A stretch of 64,000 nt of DNA from Candidatus Iainarchaeum sp. (GTDB lineage: Archaea; Iainarchaeota; Iainarchaeia; Iainarchaeales; GCA-2688035): positions 157,199-221,198 of the forward strand of contig JAFCCL010000001.1 of the NCBI GenBank assembly GCA_017610205.1, given 5' to 3'. Below the pieces are notes generated by a model. The model had not been told where the DNA came from. It saw only the letters and a list, made by a program, of their open reading frames with translations, and searched no databases. The position numbers were made by a program, and so were the translations under genes. Below, one piece after another: positions 21,816 through 44,956 of this stretch. Each line of letters starts with the position of its first letter. Positions within the stretch are counted from its first letter, which is position 1.

Positions 21816-21899
21816 GCCAACGTGGCGGAGTGGTCAAACGCGCTCGCCTTGAGAGCGAGAGTCCGAGAGGGCACGCAGGTTCAAATCCTGTCGTTGGCG
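21816..21899 (+). tRNA. tRNA-Ser(TGA), integration target
   Basis: Acceptor GCCAACG/CGTTGGC. Anticodon stem CTCGC/GCGAG with loop CTTGAGA. Long variable arm. T arm GCAGG-TTCAAAT-CCTGT. 84 nt. Confidence 0.9.
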
Positions 21900-21958
21900 T
21901 CTTTCTCCAATTCAATCGCCCTTGCCCCCTGCATTTAAATGGGTTTCGGTTGAGGGAG

Positions 21959-23164
21959 ATGAAAAGTATGAGGGAATACATTCACCCCTACAAGAAAAAC
22001 CTTGAAAGGGAAATTCAACGAATAAAGGAATCTGAGCTGCTTGGGGATAACAAGCAGTTGATTCTGAAATTCTATCAGCACAACATGGCTCAAGAGCACA
22101 GCCTTCCGAGAATGGAACGGCAAGCCTGTGTTCTAAGAAAGGTTGCCGAGTGGCAGAAAAAGGATTTCAGGCAGTTAACCAAAGAAGACTATGTGGCTTT
22201 CATTGCCTGGATGCGCGAAAAAGAATACAAAGACGGAACCATCTGGACATACAAACAAATACTTATGGTCTTTCACAAATGGCTCAACAACGGAGTAAAG
22301 CCAGAGTGCATTGCATGGTTCAAGCTCAAAAAGCTGTTCAATAATACCTTGCCAGAGAACCTAATTACGCCGGAAGAAGCCAAAAGGCTGATTAAAGGAG
22401 CGGATAAAAAGCGTGACAAGGCATTGATTGCCTCTCTTTGGGAAACAGGAGCGCGTATCGGTGAGCTTGGGTGCCTGAAAATAAGGGACGTTACCTTTGA
22501 TGAATTTGGTGGAAGAGTTCTCCTAAACGGCAAAACAGGTATGAGAAAAGTCAGAATTGTTCACAGCGCACCATACATTTTGGACTGGCTTAACGAACAC
22601 CCTTTTAGCAAGGACGTTGATGCCCCACTTTGGATTTGCTTTGGGCAAAAGACCTGTGAAAGGGTTTGCTACAACACAATAGTCAAAGTGCTTTTGATGG
22701 CAAAGGCAAGAGCAGGAATAAGCAAGCCTGTCAACCCACATCATTTCAGGCACAGCAGGGCAACATACATGGCTCAGCATCTAACAGAAGCCCAGATGAA
22801 AGAATACTTTGGATGGGGGCAGGATAGTAGAATGGCTGCACGATATGTTCACCTTTCAGGCAAGCAGGTTGACGACGCAGTTCTGAGAATGTGCGGCCTG
22901 AAGAAAAGAGAGGAAGAAAAGGATATCCTAAAGCGCGAACCTTGTCCCAGATGCAAATTCCTGAACGAAATTAACTCAGATTACTGCCAAAAATGCTGGA
23001 TTCCTCTAAGTCCACAAGCTACAAATGAAATTCAGGAAACAGAAGACAAAAGCCAAGAAAGCGTAATCAGCCTAATGAAATTGCTTGAATTAGTTGGAAA
23101 CAACCCGGGAAAAGTGCGGCAGGCACTCACAATCCTGCAACAAGACACTACAAGGAGGTTTTAG
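21959..23164 (+). CDS. int: tyrosine recombinase / integrase
   Basis: ASLWETGARIGELGCL (box I Arg), HHFRHSRATYMA (HxxR) and GW...MAARYVH (catalytic Tyr). Trimmed from the track start 21797, which reads through the tRNA. Confidence 0.9.
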   Translation: MKSMREYIHPYKKNLEREIQRIKESELLGDNKQLILKFYQHNMAQEHSLPRMERQACVLRKVAEWQKKDFRQLTKEDYVAFIAWMREKEYKDGTIWTYKQILMVFHKWLNNGVKPECIAWFKLKKLFNNTLPENLITPEEAKRLIKGADKKRDKALIASLWETGARIGELGCLKIRDVTFDEFGGRVLLNGKTGMRKVRIVHSAPYILDWLNEHPFSKDVDAPLWICFGQKTCERVCYNTIVKVLLMAKARAGISKPVNPHHFRHSRATYMAQHLTEAQMKEYFGWGQDSRMAARYVHLSGKQVDDAVLRMCGLKKREEEKDILKREPCPRCKFLNEINSDYCQKCWIPLSPQATNEIQETEDKSQESVISLMKLLELVGNNPGKVRQALTILQQDTTRRF

Positions 23165-23333
23165 AATGGGAATGGGAACATTTTTACAGCAAAATAAGAC
23201 AAAAAACCAATTGGTAGAAACAAACAGATTATTGAAAGAGCAAAACCAATTGCTAAAAGAAATCAAGGAATTACTGGAAAGAAGACAATAGAATTTTAAT
23301 AGGGTTTTTGAGTATTCAACTAGTAGGCACACT

Positions 23334-24074
23334 GTGGCGAATATGGTTAGAGGTAATGAGGCAATGGAAAGCAAGCAAAAACCCGACAAAGCAGAACATA
23401 ATGATGGTCTTTGTATAGACTGGTCTAAATGCAAGTATAAGTCTGTGAGGAGTTGCTCACTTTCGTTTTATGCAAGAAATTTAGAGATTAAACTAAGCGA
23501 AAATCATTTTTTGTCTTTTAGCGAAGAACTAAAAAAATTTTATCAGAGTTATTTAGAAGAAATGAAAAAGTCAATCAAGCAGTGTTGTAAAAATGACAAG
23601 CCGCCTTCACCCGGTGACCGAAAGAAAAATACTCAAATATTTACCAAGGCCCTGATAGGTCTAATATCGGATGTTATTGACGTTCCAAAAGACGAGATAA
23701 TATCAGAAAAGCGCGTAACATTTATGGATAAGAGAAAACTAGAGAAACCAATAGACCTCTACATACCTAAAATAAATACTTTTATTGAAATAAAATATGT
23801 CTTAGACTTCAATCATGTTGGTTCGGCTCTATTTGAAGCAATTCTCTGCAAAAAGTTGAAAAATATAAGGTTCCTAGTAGTCGGATGGTATGATTCCGCG
23901 CAAGAAAGAAAAGATTGCTTTGCTTATAACGAAATACTAGATAACGAAAAACTACCGGAGCTAAAGAACTACATAGACGGAATATTTGCACTAAACCCGA
24001 AATATGGAACAAAGCAAGCTGAAAAGTTTGTATCCAAACTAAAGGAGTATGCCAAGGGCCAAGCAGTTGTCTAA
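23334..24074 (+). CDS. PD-(D/E)xK-like nuclease candidate (possible restriction endonuclease)
   Basis: KPIDLYIPKINTFIEIKYVLDF fits the hhD...ExK core. It lies next to the methyltransferase genes. ATG alternatives are at 23343 and 23364. Confidence 0.45.
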   Translation: MANMVRGNEAMESKQKPDKAEHNDGLCIDWSKCKYKSVRSCSLSFYARNLEIKLSENHFLSFSEELKKFYQSYLEEMKKSIKQCCKNDKPPSPGDRKKNTQIFTKALIGLISDVIDVPKDEIISEKRVTFMDKRKLEKPIDLYIPKINTFIEIKYVLDFNHVGSALFEAILCKKLKNIRFLVVGWYDSAQERKDCFAYNEILDNEKLPELKNYIDGIFALNPKYGTKQAEKFVSKLKEYAKGQAVV

Positions 24075-24604
24075 TCTTATAACTGAATTTTGTTCAACCT
24101 GACGATTGCTTCAATCAACCCTTGCTCCAGCTTATTCAATTTACCTTCAAGGTTTTCAATTCGCTCACTCAAATTGTAAAAGCTTCTCTGCGGTGAATTA
24201 GTGCTAAACCCTATCTTTGTCAAGTCCCTCATCCTTCCTTCCCTCCAAAATTTTTTCCAACTGCTGTAGCGCAAAAACAAAGGCTTTCCCGTGCACCTGT
24301 TCAAAGTGCCGCAAGTTTCGATAACGCACAACTAACAGCACCCCCTTCTCCTTTCTTGCCCTTTTCTTTCAATTCCTTCCACTGCTTATATTTTTCAAGC
24401 AGATAACACAGTGGGGCAGCGTTGTCCTTTTTGAACTCCTCAAGCTTTGGAGCACACCCTACCTGCAAAATTGTCTGGATTCCATCCACAATCAACCACC
24501 TCAAACAGAAACCTGTTCCCAGCGTTTAAATAGGTTTTGTGAAAAAATTAAGCAGAAAGCATTGCAAGCTTTATTTAAAAATAGTTTCAAATAGGCTTAT
24601 TCTT

Positions 24605-25987
24605 ATGGCTAAGGAAGAAAGAAACTGGCATCCAAATTTCAAAAAATACATGGAAAAAATAATACAACATCCTAACTACACAGGAATGCCCGAAATTCAC
24701 AAAAAAGATGGTTCTATCCTATGGATTACTGCAGGCAAAGGCAGAATAGGCAAAGAACGCACTAAATGGTGGGACAAAAAAAGAGAAGAGCTAGGAATAG
24801 ATAAAAAAATCAAATGGATATCAGAAACAGCAAAAAAAAATCATCCAACCGGGAGAAAACCTTGCCAAATCTGTGGCGAGGAAATGGAATTGGCTTATGT
24901 TTATCCATACGTAGGCGTTCTCGCAAAAATTAATGCAATTCCAAAAATAAATGGTTTTTTTGATGTATATTATTCCATTAATGATATAATCAAAGAAGGT
25001 GCAAAGCTTGGAGGAGAAGAATTCTTCAAGGAACTGAGGAAAATATTTAAAATTCCTGCAAAAGTTAAGGATTCTGTTGAAGCATTTCAATCTTATATAA
25101 CCGAAAATTGTAAAACCAAGCTCAGTCCAGGTGCAATGAGCAACGCTCCAGACAGGCTTGATGGCTTTCACACTTACAATAAATGTTGCAGAGCAACGCA
25201 TGACACTGGAAGACATAAGTCTAACCTGCAACGTTATGTCCAAGACAGAAGAGCATATGAAAACTGGGCCGAAGGAGATTGGAAAGCCGCTGAAAGGCTG
25301 ATGGGAGAATTCCATAAACATGGTTTAAGCGCTGACCATATAGGGCCCATATCGCTTGGCTTCTGTCACCGAGCAAAGTTCCAGCCTATGAGTAGAGAAG
25401 CAAACTCTGCTAAAAACAATCGCATGTCATTGAACGATGTTCAAATCCTTCTTGCAGACGAAGCAAAAGGCCAAAAGGTTGTTTCATGGCACTCCAAATT
25501 CGTTTGGGATGCATTGAAAAGTAGAGTGAAAACAGATGCGCAAGCCAAACTTGTGAGCAGGCTAATGAGAAAAAATCTTCATCACGTGCTCAGCATTTTT
25601 GCAAAAATAAATGCCGAGGACGGGAAAGAATTCCTAATTAGGAACTTTCTACACCCAGAACATTCCTATTATGATGTAAAGTTCACTGGATTTAATCCAG
25701 AAACAGGCGGGTTTGAAAAGATGAAAAAAATCGAGGGCGATAAGAAGCAATACAAAAATAATGTTCAACGGTACATTCGCATATCGTTTGAATCACTGGG
25801 CCATTATATTGACAAAGACAATCGTGTCGTTAGCAGCTGGAACAATCTTAAAGTGGATGAGGTGCTTTCAAAAGCAGTGGCTTCATTGAAAGCAGGGAAT
25901 GAAGATACTTGCAAGGAAAACCTTTCAAATACACTGAAACTATTAGCGGAAGATGCAGTGAAAGAATTTGAATCAGAACAAGTATGA
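24605..25987 (+). CDS. candidate restriction endonuclease (zinc-ribbon CxxC + HNH/beta-beta-alpha-Me-like motif)
   Basis: CQICGEEMEL, and LSADHIGPISLGFCHRAKFQPMSREANSAKNNRMSLNDV (DH...N...N spacing). Converges on and overlaps the C5-methyltransferase gene by 15 nt. Trimmed to ATG 24605. Confidence 0.5.
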   Translation: MAKEERNWHPNFKKYMEKIIQHPNYTGMPEIHKKDGSILWITAGKGRIGKERTKWWDKKREELGIDKKIKWISETAKKNHPTGRKPCQICGEEMELAYVYPYVGVLAKINAIPKINGFFDVYYSINDIIKEGAKLGGEEFFKELRKIFKIPAKVKDSVEAFQSYITENCKTKLSPGAMSNAPDRLDGFHTYNKCCRATHDTGRHKSNLQRYVQDRRAYENWAEGDWKAAERLMGEFHKHGLSADHIGPISLGFCHRAKFQPMSREANSAKNNRMSLNDVQILLADEAKGQKVVSWHSKFVWDALKSRVKTDAQAKLVSRLMRKNLHHVLSIFAKINAEDGKEFLIRNFLHPEHSYYDVKFTGFNPETGGFEKMKKIEGDKKQYKNNVQRYIRISFESLGHYIDKDNRVVSSWNNLKVDEVLSKAVASLKAGNEDTCKENLSNTLKLLAEDAVKEFESEQV

Positions 25988-27148
25988 GGGCAGCTTCTTT
26001 TTAATACACACTTCATAAAATTGAGCAAACGTCTTTTTTCCCATCAGAAATTCTTGGTAAGGAGAATAAAGCTCGCCGTCAAACAAAACTTCCATTTCGC
26101 CACTGTTTGGCTTTAAAGCAGGCAAGCCGTAAATAGCATCCTTGACTGTTATAAATGAAGGCAAACCATCAGAGCCATCAGAAAATAGTGGCTTAGGTGA
26201 AGCCAACTTTGTTTCAGTTCTAAACCCAGTAATGAAAACTCTTCTCCTCCTCTGAGGAACACCATATTCTTCAGCCTTAAGTTTCCAAGGCTCATTAACA
26301 TGATAACCAATGCCCTCAAAAGCCTCAACTATTTCTTTAAGAGCTGCTCCTTTTCTCATAGAAAGTATGCCTGGAACATTTTCCATCACAAAAGCTTCAG
26401 GTTTTATTTTTTTGACTAAGTCAACAAAGTGAACAAAAAGGTCATTGCGTGCATCCTTTGGATTCCTCCAACCAGCATGAGAAAATCCTTGGCAGGGTGG
26501 ACCTCCAACCACTACACCAATTTTGTATTTTTTTGCTAGACTGGAAAGTCTTTCTTTATTTTTATTTTCGCGAATATCGCCTAGTATACAGAAAGCAGGA
26601 TCTATTTCAGGATTGTTTTTGAGGAATGTTTCAAAAAAGCGTTTTTCTATTTCAATGGCTCCAACAACATCAAAGCCCGCTAGTTTAAATCCTTCAGAAA
26701 AACCACCTGCACCGGAAAAAAGGTCGATTGTTTTGTCGCTATTAACATGCTTCTTGACTTCTGTTGCAACTGCTCTTGCTAAGAGTGGAGGAACAGCATT
26801 GCCTATTTGTTTAAACTGTGAAGTTTTTGCGCCATGAAAAATGAAATTGTCTTTGAATGATTGCAGTCTTGCACCTTCTCTTAGAGAAATAAGTCTGTTT
26901 TGGGAAGGGTGTATATGGCAACCGTTTCCAATTCTGTTAAAGTATGTTGAAATAGTGTAACTTGGTTTGTCATATCGTAAACGACCATAATAAGTGGTTC
27001 TGCCACCGCTTTCTCTTATTTGCTTTAAACGTTGTGAAGGAATGTGCGGAGGGATGCTTGCCCAATTTCCCCCCGGCGGGATGTGGTTAACCATCTGCAT
27101 TTCTAATTGGCTAAAGCCGGGCGTTATATGGTTATGTAGTTTTCTCAT
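25973..27148 (-). CDS. DNA (cytosine-5)-methyltransferase with circularly permuted motif order (IX-X before I-VIII)
   Basis: N-terminal RLISLREGARLQSFKDNF (IX) and QIGNAVPPLLA (X). Then DLFSGAGGFSEGF (I), GGPPCQGFS (IV), FVMENVPGIL (VI) and GVPQRRRRVFITG (VIII). Confidence 0.85.
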   Translation of the reverse strand: MRKLHNHITPGFSQLEMQMVNHIPPGGNWASIPPHIPSQRLKQIRESGGRTTYYGRLRYDKPSYTISTYFNRIGNGCHIHPSQNRLISLREGARLQSFKDNFIFHGAKTSQFKQIGNAVPPLLARAVATEVKKHVNSDKTIDLFSGAGGFSEGFKLAGFDVVGAIEIEKRFFETFLKNNPEIDPAFCILGDIRENKNKERLSSLAKKYKIGVVVGGPPCQGFSHAGWRNPKDARNDLFVHFVDLVKKIKPEAFVMENVPGILSMRKGAALKEIVEAFEGIGYHVNEPWKLKAEEYGVPQRRRRVFITGFRTETKLASPKPLFSDGSDGLPSFITVKDAIYGLPALKPNSGEMEVLFDGELYSPYQEFLMGKKTFAQFYEVCIKKKLPSYLF

Positions 27149-29099
27149 TGTAAAACAGCCTAATATAGTTAATTTCTCTAGAATTTAAACCATACTGTTT
27201 GAAAATCTCTTCCTCAAGTTTTTCATTATTTTTTGCATCTAAAAGCCCTTTTTGCGGGAGGATGATGGGCAATTCTCCTAGTTCGTAGTTACTTATATGA
27301 TTGTTGTAGTTTGATATTTTGAATCGCCAGTTCAATAATTTTGAGTTCAACAGCTTTACGAGAACCTCGTTAGAGATTCTTTTATCTTCACTCAAAAGGT
27401 AATTGCAAGAATTTGCAACAATAGTACTTTCTGGCACCATTCTAAAATTTAGTTTTTTAACTAAATCCACGTTAGCAATTTGCTGGCCGGCAATTCTCTC
27501 CTTTTGGATGTCCTCTATTTTGTTTGAACTGACTTTAGTTAGAAAGTTTTTTTGAACGAAAGCTTTTTTCGCAGTGCTTTTTATATCTTTTCCTCTAACC
27601 AAAGACAGGAGCGTTTCTCTCTCCGTTATATACTTTTTGTCCTGAGTTAGGTCTAATTCGCCTCGTTTGTTTCTGATTAGCGTAAATTCTTTTAGTTTTT
27701 TGAAAGAGTTGAGCTTTTTTAGAACAGACCATCCAACTGAATCTAACAACGGTATTTCTAATTTTGAGAAATTTTCTTTTATGTCGTTTATGTCAATCAG
27801 AACCTTTTCATCGTTTTTATTATGAAGTATTGATTCCATTTTACTTGTTTTCTCACCCTTTTTTACTTGAATTATCACTAATGATTGATTAACATTTTGA
27901 AAAAGCTGATTCTGTTCTTTGAAAAAATGCACTTTACTCAAATTACATTCAAGCAAAAGAGCTTTTCTTAAATCATAGGCACTGGAATCCCCTAGTAAAG
28001 TTGAAGGTATTATGGCTCCAATTGAACCTTGACTATTTGTTATCTTCAAGGCAATTTCTAAAAACAAACGATAATAGTTCAACATTCCTTTAGCTGAAAG
28101 AGGATATAGCTTTGAATTGTGAATAAAATTCTTTTCCTCTTCTACTCTATCCTTTTCCTGTTGATAAATTTCATTCAAGATTTTGGGCGAAATTTCTTTT
28201 GTTGATGCCGTGAAAAAATCACTTCTGTTTATTTTCAAAACTTTGTAAGGAGGATTCATAACAACCGCGTCAAATCCGCCTTGATTTTCAAAAACGTTTT
28301 TGAACGCGCTAAAGAAAGAGAATCGCTTTTTAGGGGATTTGCTTAAACCATAAATAGCGTTCCCAACAACTATCTGCTTCTGCAACTTCTTTATAGCCTC
28401 TAATCTTTGTTCTTTGGGAAATTCGTTTGCAAGTCTTAGGATTGTTATATCAACGGAAATAGAATCAATATCAGTACCATACAAGTTATTCAAAGCTTTG
28501 TCTTTATCTTTTGCTAAAGCCAGACAGGAAAGGAGGAAACGGCCAGTACCACAACCTAAGTCAATCACTTTGTTGTTCTCCACATCCTCCACAGTTTCAC
28601 TACAAATAAGATTAGAAATTTCTTTTGGAGTAAAAAATAGACCTTTTCCTTTTAGTCCTGTTTTCTTTTTCTTAATCTTTCCATTCTCAAAAAACTTTGA
28701 GTTAAACCATTGCTGTTGTTCAACCAGCGTATCCAAAACATTAGAAAAGTGGTTTTTAGTTTTTTTCTCAAGTTTATCTACAAGGAGTGAAGTAGAAGAA
28801 GAATCAAAGGTATTGAAGAGCCCTTCCTTTTTAACAAAATTCTCAAACTCAGAATATGTTTTAAATTCCATATTCCAGCTATTAAACCACCGATAAATCA
28901 AAAATTTTACAATAGTTTCATGCACCCTTCTATGCGATTCCTTAAATTTTGCTAGAATAGGCTCTTGTAAAAGCTCTTCCTGTTCCAGAGATTCTAATAA
29001 CTGCAAATCCTCAACCACCGTATTATAGATGGAAATACCGCTTTTAAATCTATCAAGAGAGAGGGTTTCCGGTGAAATATTAAAAAGTGCGGCAGTCAT
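27132..29099 (-). CDS. N6-adenine DNA methyltransferase (gamma-class, Eco57I/TaqI-like) with large target-recognition C-terminus
   Basis: GLFFTPKEISNLI (motif X), VIDLGCGTGRFLL (motif I), AVVMNPPY (motif IV). Trimmed to ATG 29099, which overlaps the upstream small ORF stop (ATGA). Confidence 0.85.
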   Translation of the reverse strand: MTAALFNISPETLSLDRFKSGISIYNTVVEDLQLLESLEQEELLQEPILAKFKESHRRVHETIVKFLIYRWFNSWNMEFKTYSEFENFVKKEGLFNTFDSSSTSLLVDKLEKKTKNHFSNVLDTLVEQQQWFNSKFFENGKIKKKKTGLKGKGLFFTPKEISNLICSETVEDVENNKVIDLGCGTGRFLLSCLALAKDKDKALNNLYGTDIDSISVDITILRLANEFPKEQRLEAIKKLQKQIVVGNAIYGLSKSPKKRFSFFSAFKNVFENQGGFDAVVMNPPYKVLKINRSDFFTASTKEISPKILNEIYQQEKDRVEEEKNFIHNSKLYPLSAKGMLNYYRLFLEIALKITNSQGSIGAIIPSTLLGDSSAYDLRKALLLECNLSKVHFFKEQNQLFQNVNQSLVIIQVKKGEKTSKMESILHNKNDEKVLIDINDIKENFSKLEIPLLDSVGWSVLKKLNSFKKLKEFTLIRNKRGELDLTQDKKYITERETLLSLVRGKDIKSTAKKAFVQKNFLTKVSSNKIEDIQKERIAGQQIANVDLVKKLNFRMVPESTIVANSCNYLLSEDKRISNEVLVKLLNSKLLNWRFKISNYNNHISNYELGELPIILPQKGLLDAKNNEKLEEEIFKQYGLNSREINYIRLFYNEKTT

Positions 29100-29305
29100 C
29101 TGACCACCGCTAAAATCTTTGTTTTTTCCCTGTTTACTTCTTCTTCGAGAAGTTGATTGAGTTTGGCTGCAAGCTCTGCCTTGCATTCAACTAAGTCGTC
29201 TGACTCGTCAAGCTCAACAGAAGCTCCGAGGCAGATACCTTTAGTTTCGTAGTTCCCAAGATTCACTTTCTGGGAAAGGTTCATGGAAAGGCTTCTCACA
29301 TTCAT
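29096..29305 (-). CDS. small hypothetical protein, first gene of the methyltransferase operon
   Basis: 69-aa ORF whose stop overlaps the N6-MTase ATG by 4 nt. No known motif. Confidence 0.45.
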   Translation of the reverse strand: MNVRSLSMNLSQKVNLGNYETKGICLGASVELDESDDLVECKAELAAKLNQLLEEEVNREKTKILAVVR

Positions 29306-35500: not shown

Positions 35501-35513
35501 TTATTGTTTTTAA

Positions 35514-39181: not shown

Positions 39182-40084
39182 ATGAAAAGAATTGGTTTTT
39201 GTTTATTTCTAATTGTAGTAATCTTGTTTAGTGGCTGTATAAAACAAACCTCTGAACAAAATGATAATTCTAATCAAAATTTTCTTGAAGAGCTTGAAAC
39301 ATGTAAAAACCAAAAATTGAAACTGGGCGTAGATTTAAAAGAATGTCAAAATTCTCTTTCTGAAGCAAATTTTTCTTTGTCAAATTATAAATTATCTCAT
39401 TTGGATTCTTTTACTCCTCCATATACTTATATTGAAGGAAGGACAATCCATACTGTTTTCAAGCTAAGTAATGGACAATTATCTCATTGGACTACTCCTG
39501 CAAATAGTTATGACTATTTTGTAACAACAGAATATTTTATGAACGAATTCGATTTAGCAACACTTCGTTGGCTCAAGGTTTCCCGAGCAACTGACTATTA
39601 TGATAACTATGCTGGAAAATATGTAAAATTATCTCCTGCGGGGCAGATTAAGGAAACGATAAATGCTGTTGACTACCGGCCATTTGTTGAAACTAAAACA
39701 ATAAAATCAATAGCTGATGAATTATATAACATGAGTTCAACGGATGAAGAATTTGTTAAAGAAGTTTTTAATATGTTAAAACAAATTACAACATATACTG
39801 AAGACGTTGACGGAGAAGCACATTTTCCTATAACAACACTTCTTTCTGCAGGTGGCGACTGTGAGGACACTGCAATTTTGACAGCAAGTCTACTAAAAGC
39901 ACCACGTCCCGATTGGCGAGTAGACCTTGTTTATATGGATGCAAACAATCCAGAAAACCCAGCAGAATTTAATCATGTAGCAGTTTATGTAGACACTGGA
40001 GAGTATGCAACTTTTATTGAAACAACTTCCACAAGCGAAATGAGTCCTTATACAAAAGTTGTTGGATGGTACTTTACTGTATAA
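39182..40084 (+). CDS. transglutaminase-fold cysteine peptidase-like lipoprotein (paralog B)
   Basis: Lipobox-like LFSGC. SAGGDCEDTAILTASLLKA, FNHVAVYVD and FIETT. Colinear with 29658-30521, including PPY.YIEGRT and SDEEFVKE. Confidence 0.75.
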   Translation: MKRIGFCLFLIVVILFSGCIKQTSEQNDNSNQNFLEELETCKNQKLKLGVDLKECQNSLSEANFSLSNYKLSHLDSFTPPYTYIEGRTIHTVFKLSNGQLSHWTTPANSYDYFVTTEYFMNEFDLATLRWLKVSRATDYYDNYAGKYVKLSPAGQIKETINAVDYRPFVETKTIKSIADELYNMSSTDEEFVKEVFNMLKQITTYTEDVDGEAHFPITTLLSAGGDCEDTAILTASLLKAPRPDWRVDLVYMDANNPENPAEFNHVAVYVDTGEYATFIETTSTSEMSPYTKVVGWYFTV

Positions 40085-40098
40085 AAAAGTGATTTGCT

Positions 40099-40547: not shown

Positions 40548-41462
40548 ATGAAACAACTCACAAAATACAATATGTTTGCCATTGGATTTATGTTACTGTT
40601 GCTTATCCTGGCTAGCGGATGTGTTAAGGTCGAAAAGCCGACTGGACAGCTTCAAAATTATTCTAATTCACAAAGCAGTGACAATCAGCCACCTACTGAA
40701 ATAAATTTAGAAATCGGTGAAACAGCCAAAACAAGTAAGATCGAGGTAACAGTTATAAGTGCTGAAATTGGATCGGAGTTAAATTATAATTCCGAATATT
40801 TTGGACCAAGTCAAAAAACCGCCCCCGCAGGCAAAAAGTTCTTATTGGTCAAAGCTAGGATAAAGAATGTTAACTCCGACAGTATATATGTTGGATCATG
40901 GGAATTTAGTGCAACAGACGGCGAAGGAAATGCCTATGATACTGAAATTAATCCATCACAGGACAGTATGCCATCCAGTCGCAAATTATATAAAAACCAA
41001 AAGATAGAAGGAACAATTCTATTTGAGTTGAATGCCAATGCAAAAGATGTAAAAGTACTGTTTGATTTTGGAAATATGTTTACAGGGACCAGTTTGGCTT
41101 CATGGGAGTTTCCAAAAGAAGGCAAACCAGAAATTCGCATAGACCTAGATTCTGAAAACTCAATTTTTGAAAATTCTGAAAAAATAGAAATTGGTTATTA
41201 TGTGGATGGTGTAACTCACGACAGCCAATATGATATACATATTTATGAAAAACTCCTCAACGAAGATGCTGAGAATATGTGGCCTGACAGCTACGACATT
41301 GGACAAAAAGCAGGCGAAAAAACAGGCTCATTTAATTACAGTCTTAATTTCACGCCAACACCCGACAATTATCCCTTGGGAAAATATACGCTGGAAATAA
41401 CCGTAATTGATAACATCAGTGACAAAACTGCGAAAGAAGAGATTGAAATTGAAATAACTTAA
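40548..41462 (+). CDS. lipoprotein with DUF4352-like immunoglobulin-fold domain
   Basis: Lipobox LASGC. KIEVTVISAEIG...KFLLVKARIKNVNSDSIYVGSWEFSATDGEGNAYD...GTILFEL. Confidence 0.6.
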   Translation: MKQLTKYNMFAIGFMLLLLILASGCVKVEKPTGQLQNYSNSQSSDNQPPTEINLEIGETAKTSKIEVTVISAEIGSELNYNSEYFGPSQKTAPAGKKFLLVKARIKNVNSDSIYVGSWEFSATDGEGNAYDTEINPSQDSMPSSRKLYKNQKIEGTILFELNANAKDVKVLFDFGNMFTGTSLASWEFPKEGKPEIRIDLDSENSIFENSEKIEIGYYVDGVTHDSQYDIHIYEKLLNEDAENMWPDSYDIGQKAGEKTGSFNYSLNFTPTPDNYPLGKYTLEITVIDNISDKTAKEEIEIEIT

Positions 41463-41626: not shown

Positions 41627-42305
41627 TTATGGCAAGCTTTCGCAGGCTATTCCATCATTGTCGCCATCTAGCCAATGAACATCGTTTGCTGTTCCACCAC
41701 AGGCCACAAATACTGCTTGTGCTTCTGCTCGTGTCCTAAAATCACTGCAATTGTAAGCGTTGTATGAGCAAATATAAGTTGGGCTATTGGTTTTTGGTGT
41801 TTCTTCGGCTTCCCAGATTCCAATATTTAGAACTTTGGCTTCTGTTTCCATTTCTTCTAAATCATTACACAATTTTGTATCAGGAGGAAAGCGGTACACT
41901 CTACCAAAACCATTTTTTTACGAGTTCACCATTCACAAACAAGTCTTCAAGATAAACATATCTCAAAAGCCTGCCATACATATCAATTTCGCTTACGTCT
42001 TTTTCAAGCAGAACGCTTTTGCCTAAAACCAAACTGGTAAGATAGTCTTTTGCTTCTTGGTAGCCTGCTTCGCCCTGCTCAGGAGTATCAATGCATATCA
42101 GCCTTACCCTTTCATCCGTATTTAGCACTATTGTGTCGCCATCAATTATTCGAGAAACTATGAGTTCCAGTGGAATTACTGGGTTTTCTTTCTCAACAGG
42201 TTTTTCTTCTACAGGACGCTCTTCAGTTGTTTTCTCTTCACCTTCTGAAACCCCTTGTTCTTCTTCATTTGACGGTTGCTCTCCAGGCACAATAAAAGTT
42301 TTCAA
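41627..42305 (-). pseudogene. thermonuclease (SNase) fused to Excalibur Ca-binding domain, frameshifted in an A7 run
   Basis: IIDGDTIVLNTDERVRLICIDTPE...MYGRLLRYVYL...[10 protein letters not shown]. Removing one A from the run (T7 at 41913-41919 on +) gives [15 protein letters not shown]...[10 protein letters not shown], then [16 protein letters not shown]...[13 protein letters not shown]. Confidence 0.75.
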
Positions 42306-42956: not shown

Positions 42957-43158
42957 AAAAAACCACCTAACTAAAAAAAAAGACTTCCTTGTATTTAAAG
43001 GTTATTTTACTGGGTTACCCACCGATTGCTTATAAGACAACAAAAGAATTCTAAATAACAACCCCAAACAGAAAGTAAACCTTTTGGTTGAACTTTTTTC
43101 AACCGCTAGTATATAAGTCTGCAACTAAGAGTTATTTTAGGGGTATAGGTGAATTGGG

Positions 43159-43671
43159 ATGGAGCAGCAAGCTCTTGAACTGAAAAAGATATTTAATGGA
43201 GTAATTGACAGCTTTGGATTAAACCACGCACGCGTATACTATACTCTGCTGTCAAGTGAAGTTAAAACCGCAAAACAATTGATTGAAACAACAAACGTAA
43301 ACCAGGCAACCACTTACGCAGTACTACGTGAACTGCTTAAATGGGAGCTAATCAAGCACAGCAACACAAACCCGACAAGCTATTTTATTGACAACCCAAT
43401 GAAAACCTTTGAACAACAAGTCAAAAGAAAAGAAAAAATAATCAACACCAAACGAAAACAACTAGAAAACCTAATAGCATCAGACACAGACGAAACAGAA
43501 AAATACATAATCAAAATAGGAAAAGGGCAACAAACAAAACTCGTGAACGTGCTTACAAAAAAAGAAATCAAATACAAAGGAGAACTAATAAAAATAAAAG
43601 AATCGCTGGACAAAATGCTGAAAGAGGCGCCGGAAAAAGAAAAGAGGTACGCTTTCGCTTACTACAAATAA
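43159..43671 (+). CDS. TrmB-like winged-helix transcription regulator
   Basis: ARVYYTLLSSEVKTAKQLIETTNVNQATTYAVLRELLKWELI resembles the TrmB N-terminal HTH. Confidence 0.55.
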   Translation: MEQQALELKKIFNGVIDSFGLNHARVYYTLLSSEVKTAKQLIETTNVNQATTYAVLRELLKWELIKHSNTNPTSYFIDNPMKTFEQQVKRKEKIINTKRKQLENLIASDTDETEKYIIKIGKGQQTKLVNVLTKKEIKYKGELIKIKESLDKMLKEAPEKEKRYAFAYYK

Positions 43672-43715
43672 AATCAACTAAATGCTTATATTGATTACCT
43701 AATTATAATCTTGGG

Positions 43716-44813
43716 ATGGATATAGAAAAGCTAAAAACACTTGCCCTTAAACTTCAGGGCGAATTATTAACTTCGAGTAGAAAATATTTGTCAGATGAAA
43801 AAATATCACATACCAAATTGATAGACCTTCACGAAAATGCGCAAAAAATACTGCCGGACCATAAAACCCTTTTTGAAAGACATATAGAAACTTTAAAAGA
43901 TCCAATTCTGTATATAACAACAAAAGAAGCAGCCGATTTATGTAAAGATATTTTTGAATATGCTATTTTAGAAGACGATAAAAAGGAAAAAAGTGAAACA
44001 CTCGCTAAAGACCCACTTACTGATTTATTTGAAAAGAATAAATTAGCGGAGTTAGATTTTTCTAAATATAAAGAACTTTCAATTGCCTTTCTTGATTTAG
44101 ATAATTTCAAAAAAATAAACGACAAATACAAACATAATAAAGGCGATCTTGCACTAATACAAGTTGCCTCTGCACTAAAGGAAATTGTAGGAAAAAATCA
44201 TTGGGTTTTAAGAAACCACGGCAGTCGAGGAGATGAGTTTATAGTTGTTTTTTTAGATTTAGAGAAAGAAAAAGCATTTAGATTAATTGAAGAATGCAGA
44301 AAAAAAATAGAACACAATAAAGTTGAAAATTTCAACATAACAGTTAGCATCGGTATTGCATCATATCCTAATGATGGAAAAACTCTAAATGAGATTATAG
44401 AAAAAGCCGATGAAGCAATGTATCTTTCTAAAGAAAACGGAAGAAATTGCACGACTCTCTATGATGAAAGCATGGTAAATGAAATAGAAACTATTAATTT
44501 TAGACTTGAGGAAATTGCTAATATAAAAAATGGGGCTAAAGTCATTGTAAAAAGTTGGAAGTGTCATCAGGCTCCTAATATAACTAATTTAGAAGCAATC
44601 GAACTAAGAGACTTAGATGAAGATATCCTGTATACTAGTAGAAATAAAGGCGGAATGGCGACTATTATAACCATTGAAAAAGAAATTCGTGGCGTTGTTA
44701 GAGGGGTTAAAAGGCCACCAGGGCAAACGTTATTTGAATTAGTGGTTCAAAAAAAGCAACTAGAAGGAATTTCATCAGATCCAAAGGATTTTTTGAGTCC
44801 TTTAGTTAGATAA
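43716..44813 (+). CDS. GGDEF-domain (diguanylate-cyclase fold) protein with RGDEF motif and unknown N- and C-terminal domains
   Basis: DPLTDLFEKNKL, IAFLDLDNFKKINDKYKHNKGD, HGSRGDEFIVVF (RGDEF at 44226-44240), VSIGIASYP, and ADEAMYLSKENGRNC. Confidence 0.8.
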   Translation: MDIEKLKTLALKLQGELLTSSRKYLSDEKISHTKLIDLHENAQKILPDHKTLFERHIETLKDPILYITTKEAADLCKDIFEYAILEDDKKEKSETLAKDPLTDLFEKNKLAELDFSKYKELSIAFLDLDNFKKINDKYKHNKGDLALIQVASALKEIVGKNHWVLRNHGSRGDEFIVVFLDLEKEKAFRLIEECRKKIEHNKVENFNITVSIGIASYPNDGKTLNEIIEKADEAMYLSKENGRNCTTLYDESMVNEIETINFRLEEIANIKNGAKVIVKSWKCHQAPNITNLEAIELRDLDEDILYTSRNKGGMATIITIEKEIRGVVRGVKRPPGQTLFELVVQKKQLEGISSDPKDFLSPLVR

Positions 44814-44943
44814 CTAATAGTAATCCATATCTCATTAAGACCACCTTGCCGAAAAGTTAATTAACTTCCTTGCACTATACTGTTTCTGCATAATAAATTC
44901 AGCCGGCCAAGGCAGTGGTGGGCGTTTGATTTTGGGGAAGAAG

Positions 44944-44956
44944 CCTGTCGTTGGCG
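44944..44956 (+). repeat. attR-like copy of the tRNA-Ser(TGA) 3' end
   Basis: Exact 13-nt match, cctgtcgttggcg, to 21887-21899. Confidence 0.75.

What the first reader, a model, noticed from the sequence alone, without database searches (positions are those of the whole stretch)
21887..44956. 23-kb integrated element at tRNA-Ser(TGA) bounded by a 13-nt direct repeat
The last 13 nt of the tRNA (cctgtcgttggcg, 21887-21899) recur exactly at 44944-44956. A complete tyrosine recombinase (ETGARIGE, HHFRHSR, AARYVH) begins 60 nt after the tRNA. By my arithmetic a given 13-mer is expected about 0.002 times in 2 x 64 kb. An intact int next to an intact tRNA is the pNOB8/bacterial style of integration, not the SSV style that splits int. 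All cargo between the repeats is accessory: R-M genes, three PD-(D/E)xK candidates, HEPN, T4SS-like genes, secreted proteins and GGDEF.
Basis: partly seen in the sequence, partly recalled or inferred. Interest (0 to 1): 0.7.

Follow-up and report, generated by a model that had tools for sequence, protein, structure and literature searches.

The report
Integrated T4SS-carrying element at archaeal tRNA-Ser
A 23-kb mobile element carrying an integrase, a restriction-modification system and conjugation-type secretion genes is inserted at the 3' end of a tRNA-Ser gene in a DPANN archaeon; it is a clear but fairly ordinary example of a known kind of element, and the insertion site has been used several times.

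Summary
tRNA-Ser(TGA) lies at 21816-21899. Its last 13 nt recur exactly at 44944-44956, where 0.01 matches are expected by chance. An intact tyrosine recombinase gene starts about 60 nt after the tRNA.

The interpretation, a site-specifically integrated element, is supported by four results:
- A related genome (L003) has the same tRNA joined directly to the window's right flank, so it is an empty site.
- Tetranucleotide composition steps up across the element although GC does not change.
- Homologous integrases sit directly after other tRNAs (Asn, Thr, Leu).
- A homologous element of about 29.8 kb in a Micrarchaeota MAG has the same gene order (int ... pilin, VirB6, VirB3/TrsD, VirB4, TrmB). 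It is bounded by a 16-nt repeat of a tRNA-Leu 3' end.

Three refinements:
- The 23-kb element is the first unit of a tandem array. The core TGTCGTTGG occurs five times (21889, 44946, 45524, 47115, 47473), and the empty-site junction maps to 45534/45535.
- The integrase is "pNOB8-style" only in layout. Its catalytic tetrad is the canonical R..HxxR..Y.
- The T4SS genes are conserved backbone, while the R-M system is variable cargo.

No coupling ATPase or relaxase is present, so self-transfer is unproven. I rate it a new member of a known kind.

The parts
21816..21899 (+). tRNA-Ser(TGA), intact, no encoded CCA. It is the integration target (attB side of attL).
   Evidence: ARAGORN; Rfam RF00005, 61.7 bits. 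An identical tRNA occurs in L001, L002 and L009, and in L003 with an intron.
21887..21899 (+). attL core: the last 13 nt of the tRNA, CCTGTCGTTGGCG.
   Evidence: Exact repeat; 0.01 matches expected by chance.
21900..21958 (+). Element left arm. It contains the conserved block TTTAAAtgGGTTTCGGTTGAGGGAG just upstream of int, a likely promoter/RBS or protein-binding site (inferred).
   Evidence: Six-way alignment with the sequence following other tRNAs in L004, L005, L008 and L013 and the window's second remnant. The invariant columns are TTTAA...TTTCG.TTG.G.
21959..23164 (+). Tyrosine recombinase (integrase), 401 aa (398 aa from 21968), with a C-terminal CxxC...CxxC zinc-ribbon-like tail. Catalytic residues: R166, K192 (or K197), H261, R264, W286, Y296.
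   Evidence: Pfam PF00589 2e-18. PDB 4a8e P. abyssi XerA 6e-17, with residue-by-residue alignment. 2510 homologues at E<=1e-10, many carrying PF13240 zinc ribbons.
23166..23291 (+). Conserved 41-aa ORF directly after int (MGMGTFLQQNKTKNQLVETNRLLKEQNQLLKEIKELLERRQ). It looks like a coiled coil by eye. It may be an integrase accessory or directionality factor (inferred).
   Evidence: An ORF of 40-45 aa with the same sequence pattern follows int in L004, L005/L007, L008 and L013.
23334..24074 (+). 246-aa protein of unknown function.
   Evidence: No hit in Pfam, NCBIfam, PADLOC or PHROGs.
24539..25987 (+). Type IIS restriction endonuclease, Alw26I/Eco31I/Esp3I family.
   Evidence: Pfam PF09665 3.7e-132; PADLOC REase_II 7e-128.
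25973..27148 (-). C5-cytosine DNA methyltransferase of the R-M system.
   Evidence: Pfam PF00145 1.6e-68. It matches positions 655-982 of the fused-MTase profile PDLC03237.
27132..29186 (-). N6-adenine DNA methyltransferase (Eco57I/N6_Mtase/TaqI_C) of the R-M system.
   Evidence: Pfam. It matches positions 92-574 of the same PADLOC profile PDLC03237.
29658..30521 (+). Secreted or membrane-anchored transglutaminase-like (Cys protease fold) protein. It is similar by eye to the protein at 39182-40084.
   Evidence: Weak Pfam Transglut_core/DUF553 hits; N-terminal TM segment; shared GGDCED motif.
30614..31675 (+). 353-aa protein of unknown function. A gene of the same size sits at the same position upstream of the pilin gene in L011.
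   Evidence: No profile or PDB hit.
32750..33049 (+). VirB2/TrbC-type T4SS pilin, 99 aa, with a signal sequence and two TM helices.
   Evidence: Pfam T4SS_pilin 50.5 bits (cut-off 26.6) and TrbC 45.6 bits (cut-off 27.9). TM prediction.
33066..34055 (+). VirB6/TrbL-like polytopic membrane protein, 329 aa, 7 predicted TM segments.
   Evidence: TM prediction. The 68%-identical homologue in L011 carries a precomputed PF19590 TrbL_3 hit.
34383..35321 (+). VirB3 (PrgI) fused to the TrsD-like N-terminal part of VirB4.
   Evidence: Pfam PrgI 33.7 bits (cut-off 27). NCBIfam matches the N-terminal 3-286 of VirB4_plasma and 24-198 of TrsD.
35514..36824 (+). 436-aa unknown protein in the variable slot between the VirB3/TrsD and VirB4 genes.
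   Evidence: No hits. The slot holds different small ORFs in L010 and L011.
36873..39101 (+). VirB4-type ATPase (MPF-FATA-like), the only Walker-A protein in the element. It has a conserved extra C-terminal domain of about 170 aa (winged-helix plus PD-(D/E)xK-like fold; weak evidence).
   Evidence: NCBIfam conju_CD1110 1.3e-91 (308 bits, cut-off 325). PDB 4ag5 1.3e-31. Walker A scan. C-terminal domain.
39182..40084 (+). Second secreted transglutaminase-like protein.
40548..41462 (+). Secreted DUF4352 protein.
   Evidence: Pfam 4.6e-14; PHROG 806 3e-16.
41901..42305 (-). Staphylococcal-nuclease-like protein.
   Evidence: Pfam SNase 6.8e-9; PADLOC SNc 3e-10.
43159..43671 (+). TrmB-family regulator, conserved near the right end of related elements.
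   Evidence: Pfam TrmB 1e-9. 48% aa identity to the TrmB gene next to attR in L010.
43716..44813 (+). GGDEF-domain protein (the motif reads RGDEF); last gene of the element.
   Evidence: Pfam GGDEF 1.3e-29; sequence.
44944..44956 (+). attR core of the 23-kb element: an exact second copy of the tRNA 3' end.
   Evidence: It is preceded by the right-arm motif GGCGTTTGA...TTGGGGAA, which is shared with the other attR-type copies and partly with L010.
44957..45534 (+). Segment B: a 578-bp remnant with one ORF (44985-45416, minus strand). It ends in the degenerate att copy CGTGTCGTTGGTG (45522-45534).
   Evidence: Absent from L003.
45535..47125 (+). Segment C. It holds a DUF4258 toxin-like gene (45590-45823), a MazE/AbrB antitoxin-like gene (45817-46122) and a methyltransferase (46309-46992, minus strand). 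It ends in the att copy CGTGTCGTTGGCA (47113-47125). Its first 590 bp form the tRNA-proximal unit in L003.
47126..47483 (+). Segment D: a 358-bp remnant (ORF 47156-47437) ending in a fifth core copy (TGTCGTTGG, 47473-47481).

Best explanation
Window 21900-44956 is a mobile genetic element that entered the chromosome of a DPANN archaeon. The host's closest named relatives are Ca. Diapherotrites, phylum Ca. Iainarchaeota.

Mechanism of integration. The element entered by site-specific recombination between its own attachment site and the 3' end of tRNA-Ser(TGA). The element's tyrosine recombinase (R166, K192, H261, R264, W286, Y296) exchanges strands inside a 13-nt identity. That identity covers the 3' strand of the T stem, the 3' strand of the acceptor stem and the discriminator. 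The element's copy of these 13 nt rebuilds the tRNA, so the tRNA stays intact (attL, 21887-21899). The displaced original copy is left at the far end (attR, 44944-44956). The int gene lies just inside attL and is not split, so the reverse reaction (excision as a circle) remains possible.

Shown here: the repeat, the intact int, the empty site in a relative, the composition step, and the same layout in homologous elements.

Inferred:
- The 41-aa ORF after int helps or directs recombination.
- The Alw26I-type R-M system stabilises and defends the element.
- The VirB2 pilin, VirB6, VirB3/TrsD and VirB4 set builds a pilus and channel that moves the element (or DNA) between cells. That would make it an integrative, probably conjugative, element. 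I put about 0.45 on self-transfer, because no coupling ATPase or relaxase is present.

Repeated use of the same tRNA end by elements of this family left a tandem array of three decayed units (B, C, D) between the 23-kb element and the true host flank.
For: Repeat and tRNA:
- Exact 13-mer, 0.01 expected.
- Five co-oriented copies of the 9-nt core against 0.27 expected.
- The tRNA is intact.

Integrase:
- It is complete, with all catalytic residues aligned to PaXerA.

Empty site:
- In L003 the tRNA is followed directly by the homologue of window 45535 onward at 88% identity. The downstream DUF2391 gene and tRNA-Ser(GGA), and the upstream small basic protein gene, are conserved.
- Other relatives carry different inserts at the same tRNA end: L009 has 4.8-kb and 1-kb units with core copies, and L001 and L002 differ again.

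Composition:
- Tetranucleotide distance is 19.9-23.8 inside, against 12.9-14.7 for eight of the nine host chunks, with equal GC. The ninth host chunk, 48001-52000 (22.0), lies in the possible second island.
- GTCTC/GAGAC occurs once against 28.6 expected inside the element.

Family behaviour:
- Integrases 50-85% identical lie 60-70 nt after tRNA-Asn (L005/L006), a tRNA-Thr end copy (L008), tRNA-Leu(GAG) (L013) and a tRNA 3' fragment (L004). All have a conserved left arm.
- In JAZDJR010000029 the tRNA-Leu 3' 16-mer recurs exactly about 29.8 kb downstream, just after TrmB. It encloses int, R-M (MmeI type), ArdC-like, pilin, VirB6-like, VirB3/TrsD, VirB4 and TrmB.

T4SS genes:
- Pilin above the Pfam cut-offs; PrgI above its cut-off.
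- VirB4 hits: 1.3e-91 to the CD1110 family and 1.3e-31 to PDB 4ag5.

Precedent:
- Archaeal elements with 8-14-nt att cores at tRNA 3' ends, tandem arrays, and ICEs are documented (PMC8371274, PMC5861418, PMC6563490).
Against: - No circular or excised junction was found. The attP junction pattern had 0 hits in metagenome contigs. That search needs an exact 31-nt match and covers contigs, not reads, so it is weak negative evidence.
- The empty site is in a different species (88% nt identity), not in a sister strain. It lacks A plus B together, so A's own right boundary at 44956 rests on the perfect repeat alone.
- There is no coupling protein (VirD4) and no relaxase. Only one Walker-A ORF exists in the element, and no replication gene was recognised.
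- VirB4 scores just below the NCBIfam CD1110 cut-off (308 versus 325), and TrsD is far below its cut-off.
- In two homologous-integrase loci no T4SS genes lie in the 10 kb downstream of int. L008 has none at all. L014 has only a pilin gene, on the other side of int. The int-T4SS link is therefore not universal.
Confidence: 0.85

Rival explanations
1. It is an integrated island, but not a self-transmissible one. The T4SS-like genes (pilin, VirB6, VirB3/TrsD, VirB4) serve the DPANN cell itself. They might import DNA as the Ced/Ted systems do, or support the episymbiotic lifestyle as proposed for the Patescibacteria T4SS. The integrase only moves or maintains the island.
For: No VirD4-type coupling ATPase and no relaxase; only one Walker-A ORF. 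The gene set (pilin, VirB6, VirB4 only) resembles the minimal Ced/Ted and Patescibacteria sets described in PMC9905601 and PMC12102498. T4SSs lacking VirD4 are known to make pili or take up DNA (PMC12857230). VirB4 homologues of this type are very common in DPANN assemblies: 820 hits at E<=1e-20 among the 8000 candidates scored. In L014 the pilin gene lies outside the integrase-proximal region.
Against: The VirB4 is much closer to conjugative MPF-FATA ATPases than to CedB. CD1110 scores 308 bits and the mycoplasma ICE VirB4 271 bits, against 58 bits for CedB with a cut-off of 700. In two independent elements the T4SS block lies inside the att-bounded element (window; L013/L010). L003 lacks it at this locus. 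Known archaeal conjugative plasmids also lack relaxases (PMC6563490, PMC9905601).
Confidence: 0.35
2. It is a provirus, that is, an integrated archaeal virus.
For: The integrase's best matches in the virus collection are integrases of archaeal pleomorphic viruses (Geoglobus acetivorans pleomorphic virus 1, 36.5% over 91%) and of a Methanomicrobiales tailed virus.
Against: No capsid, portal, terminase or spike protein was found. PHROGs gives only one hit, to a family of unknown function, for a secreted DUF4352 protein. Pfam and NCBIfam assign the largest conserved block to T4SS components. The tRNA 3' pattern had no hit in IMG/VR.
Confidence: 0.03
3. The repeat is coincidental and the region is ancestral chromosome that L003 lost by deletion.
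For: 13 nt is short. GC content does not differ from the flanks.
Against: The expected count is 0.01. There are five co-oriented copies of the core. The breakpoints in L003 fall exactly at the tRNA end and at a degenerate copy of it. An integrase sits at the junction. Tetranucleotide usage steps up across the region. Homologous elements have the same bounded layout at other tRNAs.
Confidence: 0.02
4. The mobile unit is the whole composite 21900-47483 (A+B+C+D, 25.6 kb), or another combination, rather than A alone. The integrase can pair attL with any of the four downstream copies.
For: Four attR-type copies share the core and a similar right-arm motif. The empty site in L003 lacks A and B together.
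Against: Only 44944-44956 is a perfect 13/13 match. The others carry 2 or more mismatches. B, C and D carry no integrase of their own and look decayed. L003 keeps part of C next to the tRNA, so C was present before A arrived.
Confidence: 0.15

Closest known systems
Integrative-conjugative elements of Thaumarchaeota / Nitrososphaeria (Krupovic et al. 2019, PMC6563490)
   Same: Archaeal chromosome-integrated elements. They use a tyrosine integrase, are mostly in tRNA genes, have short att repeats, are supported by empty sites in relatives, form tandem arrays, carry VirB4, VirB6, VirB3 and pilin-like genes, and have no relaxase.
   Different: Those ICEs are larger (median 64 kb). They usually carry both VirB4 and VirD4, plus TFIIB and ParB. 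Here there is no VirD4, TFIIB or ParB, the element is 23 kb, and the host is a DPANN archaeon.
pNOB8-type conjugative plasmids of Sulfolobales and their integrated copies (class II / classical archaeal integration)
   Same: The int gene stays intact on integration because the att site lies upstream of int. The target is a tRNA gene. The element carries a VirB4-family ATPase.
   Different: pNOB8-type integrases are defined by R..YxxR..Y and att sites of 40-50 bp, and are confined to Sulfolobales (PMC5861418, PMC8371274). Here the tetrad is R..HxxR..Y, the core is 13 nt, and a recognisable VirB2 pilin is present. Beltran et al. report no pilus protein for archaeal conjugative plasmids (PMC9905601).
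SNJ2-type integration in haloarchaea (Wang et al. 2018, PMC5861418)
   Same: A short (13-14 bp) att core equal to the extreme 3' end of a tRNA; a canonical R..HxxR..Y tetrad; small accessory ORFs co-transcribed with int; related integrases targeting different tRNAs.
   Different: In SNJ2-type enzymes Glu/Asp-I and His/Trp-III are replaced by Gly/Ala and Ala/Val. Here E169 and W286 are kept. For the SNJ2-type subgroup quoted in that paper the att site lies downstream of the int 3' end, whereas here it lies upstream of the 5' end. The hosts are Halobacteria.
MPF-FATA type IV secretion systems of monoderm conjugative elements (CD1110/Tn-type, mycoplasma ICE, pGO1 Trs) and the Patescibacteria T4SS (PMC12102498)
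   Same: The VirB4 is best matched by the CD1110 and mycoplasma-ICE families. PrgI/VirB3, a TrsD-like separate N-terminal piece, VirB6 and a VirB2-like pilin are present. As in most Patescibacteria, there is no relaxase.
   Different: The host is an archaeon. VirB3 is fused to the TrsD-like piece. The VirB4 carries an extra C-terminal domain of about 170 aa that is not covered by the bacterial profile, which ends at residue 563. No T4CP, VirB8/PrgL or VirB1-type hydrolase was recognised; instead there are two transglutaminase-like secreted proteins.
Ced and Ted DNA-import systems of Crenarchaeota (PMC9905601)
   Same: A minimal archaeal set of VirB2-like pilin, VirB6-like membrane protein and VirB4-like ATPase, without a coupling protein.
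   Different: Ced and Ted are chromosomal, not on att-bounded elements. CedB and CedD profiles match only weakly (58 and 46 bits against cut-offs of 700 and 600).

Membership tests
Classical (class II, lambda-paradigm) archaeal integrative element at a tRNA gene | The integrase gene remains intact after integration; the att site is outside the ORF. | tested here: met
   A 401-aa ORF with all catalytic residues. The core ends 59 nt upstream of the start codon.
Classical (class II, lambda-paradigm) archaeal integrative element at a tRNA gene | Direct repeats of the att core flank the element, and the tRNA is regenerated. | tested here: met
   13/13 repeat; intact tRNA.
Classical (class II, lambda-paradigm) archaeal integrative element at a tRNA gene | An unoccupied target site exists in a related genome. 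| tested here: met
   In L003 the tRNA is joined directly to the homologue of window 45535 onward. The site is empty for A plus B together, and L003 is a different species (88% identity).
Classical (class II, lambda-paradigm) archaeal integrative element at a tRNA gene | Excision to a circle with a reconstituted attP. | tested here: inconclusive
   An exact 31-nt attP junction had 0 hits in metagenome contigs. Reads could not be searched.
pNOB8-type integrase family | Catalytic tetrad R..YxxR..Y (PMC5861418, PMC8371274). | tested here: not met
   H261-x-x-R264, aligned to the HxxR of PaXerA.
pNOB8-type integrase family | The att site is upstream of int, so int stays intact. | tested here: met
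SSV-type (class I, 'suicidal') integrase | attP lies inside the int ORF and the gene is split on integration; tetrad R..KxxR..Y. | tested here: not met
   int is intact, and the tetrad is HxxR.
SNJ2-type integrase family | R..HxxR..Y, with Glu/Asp-I replaced by Gly/Ala and His/Trp-III replaced by Ala/Val; att downstream of int (PMC5861418). | tested here: not met
   The tetrad is met, but E169 (ARIGE) and W286 are retained and the att site is upstream of int. A short 13-nt core at the tRNA 3' end is shared.
XerA chromosome-dimer resolvase | Reaches the NCBIfam equivalog cut-off for XerA_Arch. | tested here: not met
   92.6 bits against a cut-off of 220. The protein is 401 aa with an extra zinc-ribbon-like tail and sits next to a tRNA. 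It is related to XerA but is not XerA.
Integrative and conjugative element (ICE) | VirB4-family ATPase. | tested here: met
   CD1110 family 1.3e-91; PDB 4ag5 1.3e-31.
Integrative and conjugative element (ICE) | Mating-pair-formation membrane parts (VirB2 pilin, VirB3, VirB6). | tested here: met
   Pilin and PrgI score above their Pfam cut-offs. VirB6 rests on 7 predicted TM segments and a TrbL_3 hit on the homologue.
Integrative and conjugative element (ICE) | Type IV coupling protein (VirD4/TraG/TcpA). | tested here: not met
   Only one Walker-A ORF of 80 aa or more exists in 21900-44956. No profile hit.
Integrative and conjugative element (ICE) | Relaxase and oriT. | tested here: not met
   No relaxase domain in Pfam or NCBIfam. 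Known archaeal conjugative elements also lack one (PMC6563490). oriT cannot be tested with these tools.
Integrative and conjugative element (ICE) | Demonstrated cell-to-cell transfer. | not testable with these tools
   The host is uncultivated.
Ced/Ted DNA import system | A CedB/TedB-type ATPase reaching the family threshold, in a chromosomal and non-mobile context. | tested here: not met
   CedB scores 58 bits against a cut-off of 700. The genes lie inside an att-bounded element.
Type IIS R-M system, Alw26I/Eco31I/Esp3I family | An RE_Alw26IDE endonuclease together with both N6A and C5 methyltransferase activities. | tested here: met
   PF09665 442 bits. The two MTase genes match the two halves of one fused MTase profile. 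GTCTC depletion (1 observed against 28.6 expected) fits a GTCTC-core specificity, but that specificity is inferred.
Provirus | Virion structural or packaging genes. | tested here: not met
   PHROGs and Pfam find none.

The most novel reading that the evidence does not exclude
The element may represent an undescribed family of small (23-30 kb) integrative elements of DPANN archaea. These elements carry a bacterial-style MPF-FATA secretion set, including a true VirB2 pilin, but no coupling protein and no relaxase. In this family the VirB4 ATPase itself carries a conserved C-terminal winged-helix plus PD-(D/E)xK-like nuclease domain (H642, D669 and E682 invariant; E684 in at least 90% of sequences). 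That domain could bind and cut the DNA substrate. DNA processing and translocation would then be combined in one protein, which would be a new way of feeding DNA into, or out of, a type IV channel. Such elements could be the vehicle for gene exchange between ultra-small symbiotic archaea and their hosts.
Probability: 0.2. Interest if true: 0.7.

Novelty: new member of a known kind. Interest (0 to 1): 0.45.

Why it matters
Integrated elements at tRNA genes, short att cores, tandem arrays and archaeal ICE-like elements are all documented. The finding therefore does not change the general picture.

Its value is in what it adds for DPANN archaea. These are ultra-small, mostly uncultivated symbionts whose mobile elements and routes of gene exchange are poorly described. 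My searches of the paper library found no description of att-bounded, T4SS-carrying elements in DPANN.

The window gives a clean, fully bounded example, with an empty site and a bounded homologue in another phylum-level lineage. This shows three things:
- A VirB2-pilin-containing, monoderm-type secretion set travels on integrative elements in these archaea.
- Restriction-modification systems are swapped as cargo between related elements.
- One tRNA end is reused repeatedly.

If the secretion set proves to mediate transfer or host interaction, these elements would be practical handles for genetics in DPANN and for tracing gene flow between symbiont and host.

Tried and rejected
- Exact-protein look-ups of the two flanking genes, to find other assemblies of the same strain, found nothing on record.
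- The attP (circle) junction search in metagenome contigs gave 0 hits. The tRNA 3' pattern in IMG/VR gave 0 hits.
- GC content as an island marker is flat, so I used tetranucleotides instead. My first version included each chunk in its own reference, so I redid it leave-one-out.
PDB sequence searches of 30614-31675 and 35514-36824 also gave nothing. These assignments remain unverified.
- Foldseek of the VirB4 C-terminal domain gave no hit at E<=0.001. The top of the list is dominated by PD-(D/E)xK nucleases (Cdn1, Can2, Hjc, OkrAI, VRR-NUC), but I treat this as a lead only.
- Rfam and default ARAGORN missed the tRNAs next to int in L013 and L003 because of introns. ARAGORN with introns allowed found tRNA-Leu(GAG) in L013. 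Its calls for L003 (Pro) and L004 (Arg with a 296-nt intron) are unreliable. L003 is Ser(TGA), because its exons are identical to the window's tRNA.
- I looked for an inverted repeat around the reconstructed attP. Only the TTTAAA palindrome was found at 7 nt or more. The GGCGTTTGA / TCAATCGCC symmetry seen by eye is imperfect, and I do not rely on it.
- Int and VirB4 occurring on one contig was inferred from equal contig lengths for five pairs. One pair was verified as a bounded element (L013/L010). In another (L014) the pilin gene lies on the other side of int, so the link is not general.
- No attR for the tRNA-Asn element was found within L005, L006, L011 or L012.

Full report
OBSERVATION

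ARAGORN and Rfam place tRNA-Ser(TGA) at 21816-21899. No CCA is encoded, and the gene ends at the discriminator G. The last 13 nt, CCTGTCGTTGGCG, occur exactly once more in the window, at 44944-44956 on the same strand. Dinucleotide-preserving shuffles expect 0.01 matches even with one mismatch allowed. The 13 nt are the 3' strand of the T stem, the 3' strand of the acceptor stem and the discriminator.

An ORF of 401 aa starts at 21959. The public gene call starts at 21968 and gives 398 aa. The ORF is a tyrosine recombinase (Pfam PF00589, 2e-18).

MORE COPIES: A TANDEM ARRAY

Allowing mismatches reveals two more copies on the + strand: CGTGTCGTTGGTG at 45522-45534 and CGTGTCGTTGGCA at 47113-47125. 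The 9-nt core TGTCGTTGG occurs five times, at 21889, 44946, 45524, 47115 and 47473, all on the + strand. Shuffles expect 0.27, and none of 100 reached five.

The region downstream of the tRNA therefore consists of four units:
- A, 21900-44956 (23,057 bp).
- B, 44957-45534.
- C, 45535-47125.
- D, 47126-47483.

Four of the five attR-type copies in the window and in related loci are preceded, about 25 nt upstream, by a similar motif (GCGTTTGA / GCGTTTACA / GCGTTGAAC / GGCGTTTAAC / GGATTTAAAC). This suggests that the small units are remnants of elements that used the same kind of recombination site.

EMPTY SITE AND OTHER OCCUPANTS

A scan of one genome per species with the 3' part of the tRNA gave three loci. 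A metagenome scan gave one more, L009.

L003 (JAFCCG010000093) is labelled Chloroflexi. It carries an archaeal-type intron in this tRNA, so the contig is probably mis-binned. In L003 the tRNA is followed directly by tgatatcataagatatc..., which is the sequence that follows the third copy in the window, at 45535. Identity is 88% over 601 nt. Further on, L003 has one more core copy, then the DUF2391 gene and tRNA-Ser(GGA), as in the window. Upstream, a small basic-protein gene is weakly conserved. L003 is thus an empty site for A plus B.

L009 has the same tRNA followed by a different, integrase-less 4.8-kb unit and a 1-kb unit, each ending in the core. The conserved right flank follows. L002 shares L009's tRNA-proximal sequence, and L001 has yet another one. 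This tRNA end is therefore a hot spot with different occupants in each genome.

A direct search for the circle junction (right arm, core, left arm) in metagenome contigs found nothing.

COMPOSITION

GC is the same inside and outside the element, 0.366 against 0.363. In a leave-one-out comparison of 4-kb chunks, the tetranucleotide distance to the host flanks is 19.9-23.8 for all six chunks of A. For host chunks it is 12.9-14.7, with one exception: 48001-52000 scores 22.0 (Mann-Whitney p = 0.004). That exception lies in a second possible island (see below).

THE INTEGRASE AND ITS FAMILY

The best solved relative is Pyrococcus abyssi XerA (4a8e, 6e-17). The alignment identifies R166, K192, H261-x-x-R264, W286 and Y296. 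The NCBIfam XerA model is far below its cut-off (92.6 against 220 bits). The protein has a C-terminal CxxC...CxxC tail, and many homologues carry a zinc-ribbon Pfam domain.

The literature defines three relevant families (PMC5861418, PMC8371274):
- pNOB8-type integrases have R..YxxR..Y.
- SSV-type integrases have R..KxxR..Y and a gene that is split on integration.
- SNJ2-type integrases have R..HxxR..Y with loss of Glu/Asp-I and His/Trp-III.

This enzyme has the canonical tetrad and keeps E169 and W286. It is 'classical / class II' in layout but belongs to none of those three families.

Its closest annotated relatives are integrases on haloarchaeal plasmids (39-40% identity), of Archaeoglobales pleomorphic viruses (32-36%) and of a Methanomicrobiales tailed virus (34%). 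It has 2510 homologues at E<=1e-10, and the named ones come mostly from Ca. Diapherotrites and Micrarchaeota MAGs.

Five contexts of close homologues were read:
- P0003 (72% identical) lies 68 nt after tRNA-Asn(GTT).
- P0004 (71%) lies 70 nt after a second copy of the tRNA-Thr(CGT) end. A 14-mer is repeated at 9143 and 9921 of L008.
- P0002 (85%) lies after a tRNA 3' fragment.
- P0030 (50%) lies 66 nt after an intron-containing tRNA-Leu(GAG).
- P0027 shows no tRNA.

The sequence between the tRNA end and the start codon is alignable across all of them, with an invariant TTTAA...TTTCG.TTG.G block. This fixes the left edge of the element at 21900.

A 41-aa ORF directly after int (23166-23291) is conserved in L004, L005/L007, L008 and L013. 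SNJ2 uses small co-transcribed accessory proteins for integration (PMC5861418). By analogy, this ORF may play such a role; that is an inference.

A BOUNDED HOMOLOGUE

On the Micrarchaeota contig JAZDJR010000029, the last 16 nt of the tRNA-Leu(GAG) next to int (L013) recur exactly in L010 at 13772-13787, on the same strand. That position is just downstream of a TrmB gene. In record coordinates the two copies lie about 29.8 kb apart.

Between them lie int, a UvrD/PD-(D/E)xK helicase-nuclease, an MmeI-type R-M enzyme, an ArdC-like protein, a 99-aa pilin, membrane proteins, VirB3/TrsD, VirB4 (73% identical to the window's) and TrmB (48% identical).

A second relative comes from one sample. It has int at tRNA-Asn followed by a type I R-M system (L005). 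On another contig (L011) it has the block 353-aa protein, pilin, VirB6-like, VirB3/TrsD, VirB4, with 68-92% protein identity to the window.

The secretion block and TrmB are therefore backbone, and the R-M systems are exchangeable cargo.

CARGO OF ELEMENT A

The R-M system is complete:
- An RE_Alw26IDE endonuclease (442 bits).
- A C5 methyltransferase and an N6A methyltransferase that match the two halves of one fused methyltransferase profile.

GTCTC/GAGAC occurs once in A against 28.6 expected. The left flank has 8 against 26.8 expected, and the right flank 18 against 20.3. This fits a GTCTC-type specificity and long co-residence, but the specificity is inferred.

The secretion genes are:
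- A VirB2/TrbC pilin, above both Pfam cut-offs.
- A 7-TM VirB6-like protein.
- A PrgI/VirB3 domain fused to a TrsD-like VirB4 N-terminal piece.
- A VirB4 ATPase. Its best matches are the conjugative CD1110 family (308 bits, cut-off 325) and mycoplasma ICE VirB4, with CedB at only 58 bits. It matches PDB 4ag5 at 1.3e-31.

Only this ORF in the element has a Walker A motif. No coupling protein, relaxase, replication protein or virion protein was found.

The remaining genes are two transglutaminase-like secreted proteins that look alike by eye, a DUF4352 protein, an SNase-like protein, TrmB and a GGDEF-domain protein.

Unit C carries a DUF4258 / MazE-like pair and a methyltransferase.

HOST

The flanks encode a separate GMP synthase subunit, CofD, ArgRS and a HerA-like protein with an intein. 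The best named ArgRS relatives are Ca. Diapherotrites / Ca. Iainarchaeum, at 52-62% identity. That places the host in phylum Ca. Iainarchaeota, kingdom Nanobdellati, that is DPANN. The window's contig is 236 kb.

MECHANISM

Shown: a 13-nt identity at both ends, an intact classical integrase at attL, a regenerated tRNA, an empty site, a composition step, and family-wide tRNA-end targeting with bounded homologues.

Inferred: strand exchange takes place within the 13 nt; the 41-aa ORF acts as a helper; the R-M system acts as a stabiliser and defence; and the pilin/VirB6/VirB3-TrsD/VirB4 set acts as the transfer apparatus.

Because no coupling ATPase or relaxase is present, the apparatus could instead import DNA or serve the symbiotic lifestyle. 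The Ced/Ted systems and the Patescibacteria T4SS are precedents for such roles (PMC9905601, PMC12102498, PMC12857230). I rate that rival at 0.35 and self-transfer at about 0.45.

A LEAD: THE VirB4 C-TERMINAL DOMAIN

Residues 572-742 are not covered by the bacterial profiles, but they are conserved in 24 DPANN homologues. H642, D669 and E682 are invariant, and E684-T685-G686 are nearly so.

An AlphaFold model of this domain is confident (pLDDT 90.9). Its best PDB matches are PD-(D/E)xK nucleases (Cdn1, Can2, Hjc, OkrAI, VRR-NUC). None passes E 0.001 (best 4e-3). A DNA-cutting role that replaces a relaxase is possible but unproven.

COMPARISON AND NOVELTY

Several features are already described for archaea (PMC8371274, PMC5861418, PMC6563490):
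- Short att cores: 8 bp in Thaumarchaeota and 13-14 bp for SNJ2.
- A preference for tRNA 3' ends.
- Tandem arrays.
- ICE-like elements without relaxases.

I found no paper in the library describing att-bounded, T4SS-bearing elements in DPANN. Beltran et al. state that archaeal conjugative plasmids lack a recognisable pilus protein (PMC9905601), whereas this element has a clear VirB2 pilin.

I rate it a new member of a known kind, with interest 0.45.

Noticed in passing
window 48567-54350: A second, decayed island at tRNA-Ser(GGA). The tRNA's last 16 nt (AATCTCGTCCCCTGCG, 48636-48651) recur exactly at 49193-49208, against 0.11 expected. The conserved left-arm block follows, then a truncated integrase N-terminus (46% identical over 35 aa, E 5e-9, then a stop). 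Window 48652 to about 54345 is absent in L009, where the tRNA lies about 19 nt from the homologue of window 54352 onward. The 48001-52000 chunk has an island-like tetranucleotide distance. The cargo looks metabolic (radical SAM, Exo_endo_phos, NUDIX, aldolase II, Fumble), and no right-end repeat was found.
   Followed up: partly
window 21900-44956 versus flanks: GTCTC/GAGAC, the core site of the Alw26I/Eco31I/Esp3I family, occurs once in the element against 28.6 expected. It is also depleted in the left flank (8 against 26.8) but not in the right flank (18 against 20.3).
   Followed up: partly
window 38586-39101 (VirB4 residues 572-742): A conserved extra C-terminal domain on the VirB4 ATPase. 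The AF2 model has pLDDT 90.9. The fold matches are all PD-(D/E)xK nucleases but are not significant. The conserved pattern is E..H ... PD ... ExE-T-G.
   Followed up: partly
L003 3968-4122; L013 9829-9934; L004 9553-9933: The same tRNA-Ser(TGA) carries a 67-68-nt intron at position 37/38 in L003 but none in the window, L001, L002 or L009. The tRNA-Leu(GAG) next to int in L013 has a 19-nt intron. In L004 the tRNA 3' fragment next to int is preceded by an HNH-like ORF, and ARAGORN models the whole stretch as a tRNA with a 296-nt intron (doubtful).
   Followed up: partly
window 23166-23291: A 41-aa ORF directly after the integrase stop codon, with its own GGAGG. It looks like a coiled coil by eye. 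It is conserved in L004, L005/L007, L008 and L013.
   Followed up: partly
window 43716-44813: A GGDEF-domain protein in an archaeal element. The signature reads RGDEF rather than GGDEF. From my own knowledge, c-di-GMP signalling is not established in archaea.
   Followed up: no
window 7312-11658 (minus strand): A 1448-aa HerA/DUF87-type ATPase interrupted by an intein with a LAGLIDADG endonuclease, and with a C-terminal TrmB/IclR-type HTH. It lies in the host flank and is not part of the element.
   Followed up: no
window 29658-30521 and 39182-40084: Two secreted transglutaminase-like proteins that look alike by eye (shared ...GGDCED...A..L motif) bracket the secretion-gene block. They could be envelope-remodelling enzymes standing in for the VirB1-type hydrolase.
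   Followed up: no
window 44921-44943, 45500-45521, 47091-47112; L003 3323-3347; L009 8428-8452 and 7436-7460: The attR-type copies are preceded by a similar motif of about 25 nt (GCGTTTGA / GCGTTTACA / GCGTTGAAC / GGATTTAAAC ... TTAGC). This suggests that the small units are remnants, or integrase-less riders, of the same element family.
   Followed up: partly
L001, L002, L003 record titles: Contigs that carry this archaeal tRNA and synteny are filed under 'Chloroflexi/Chloroflexota bacterium' (L002, L003) and 'Thaumarchaeota archaeon' (L001). These are probably binning or labelling errors.
   Followed up: no
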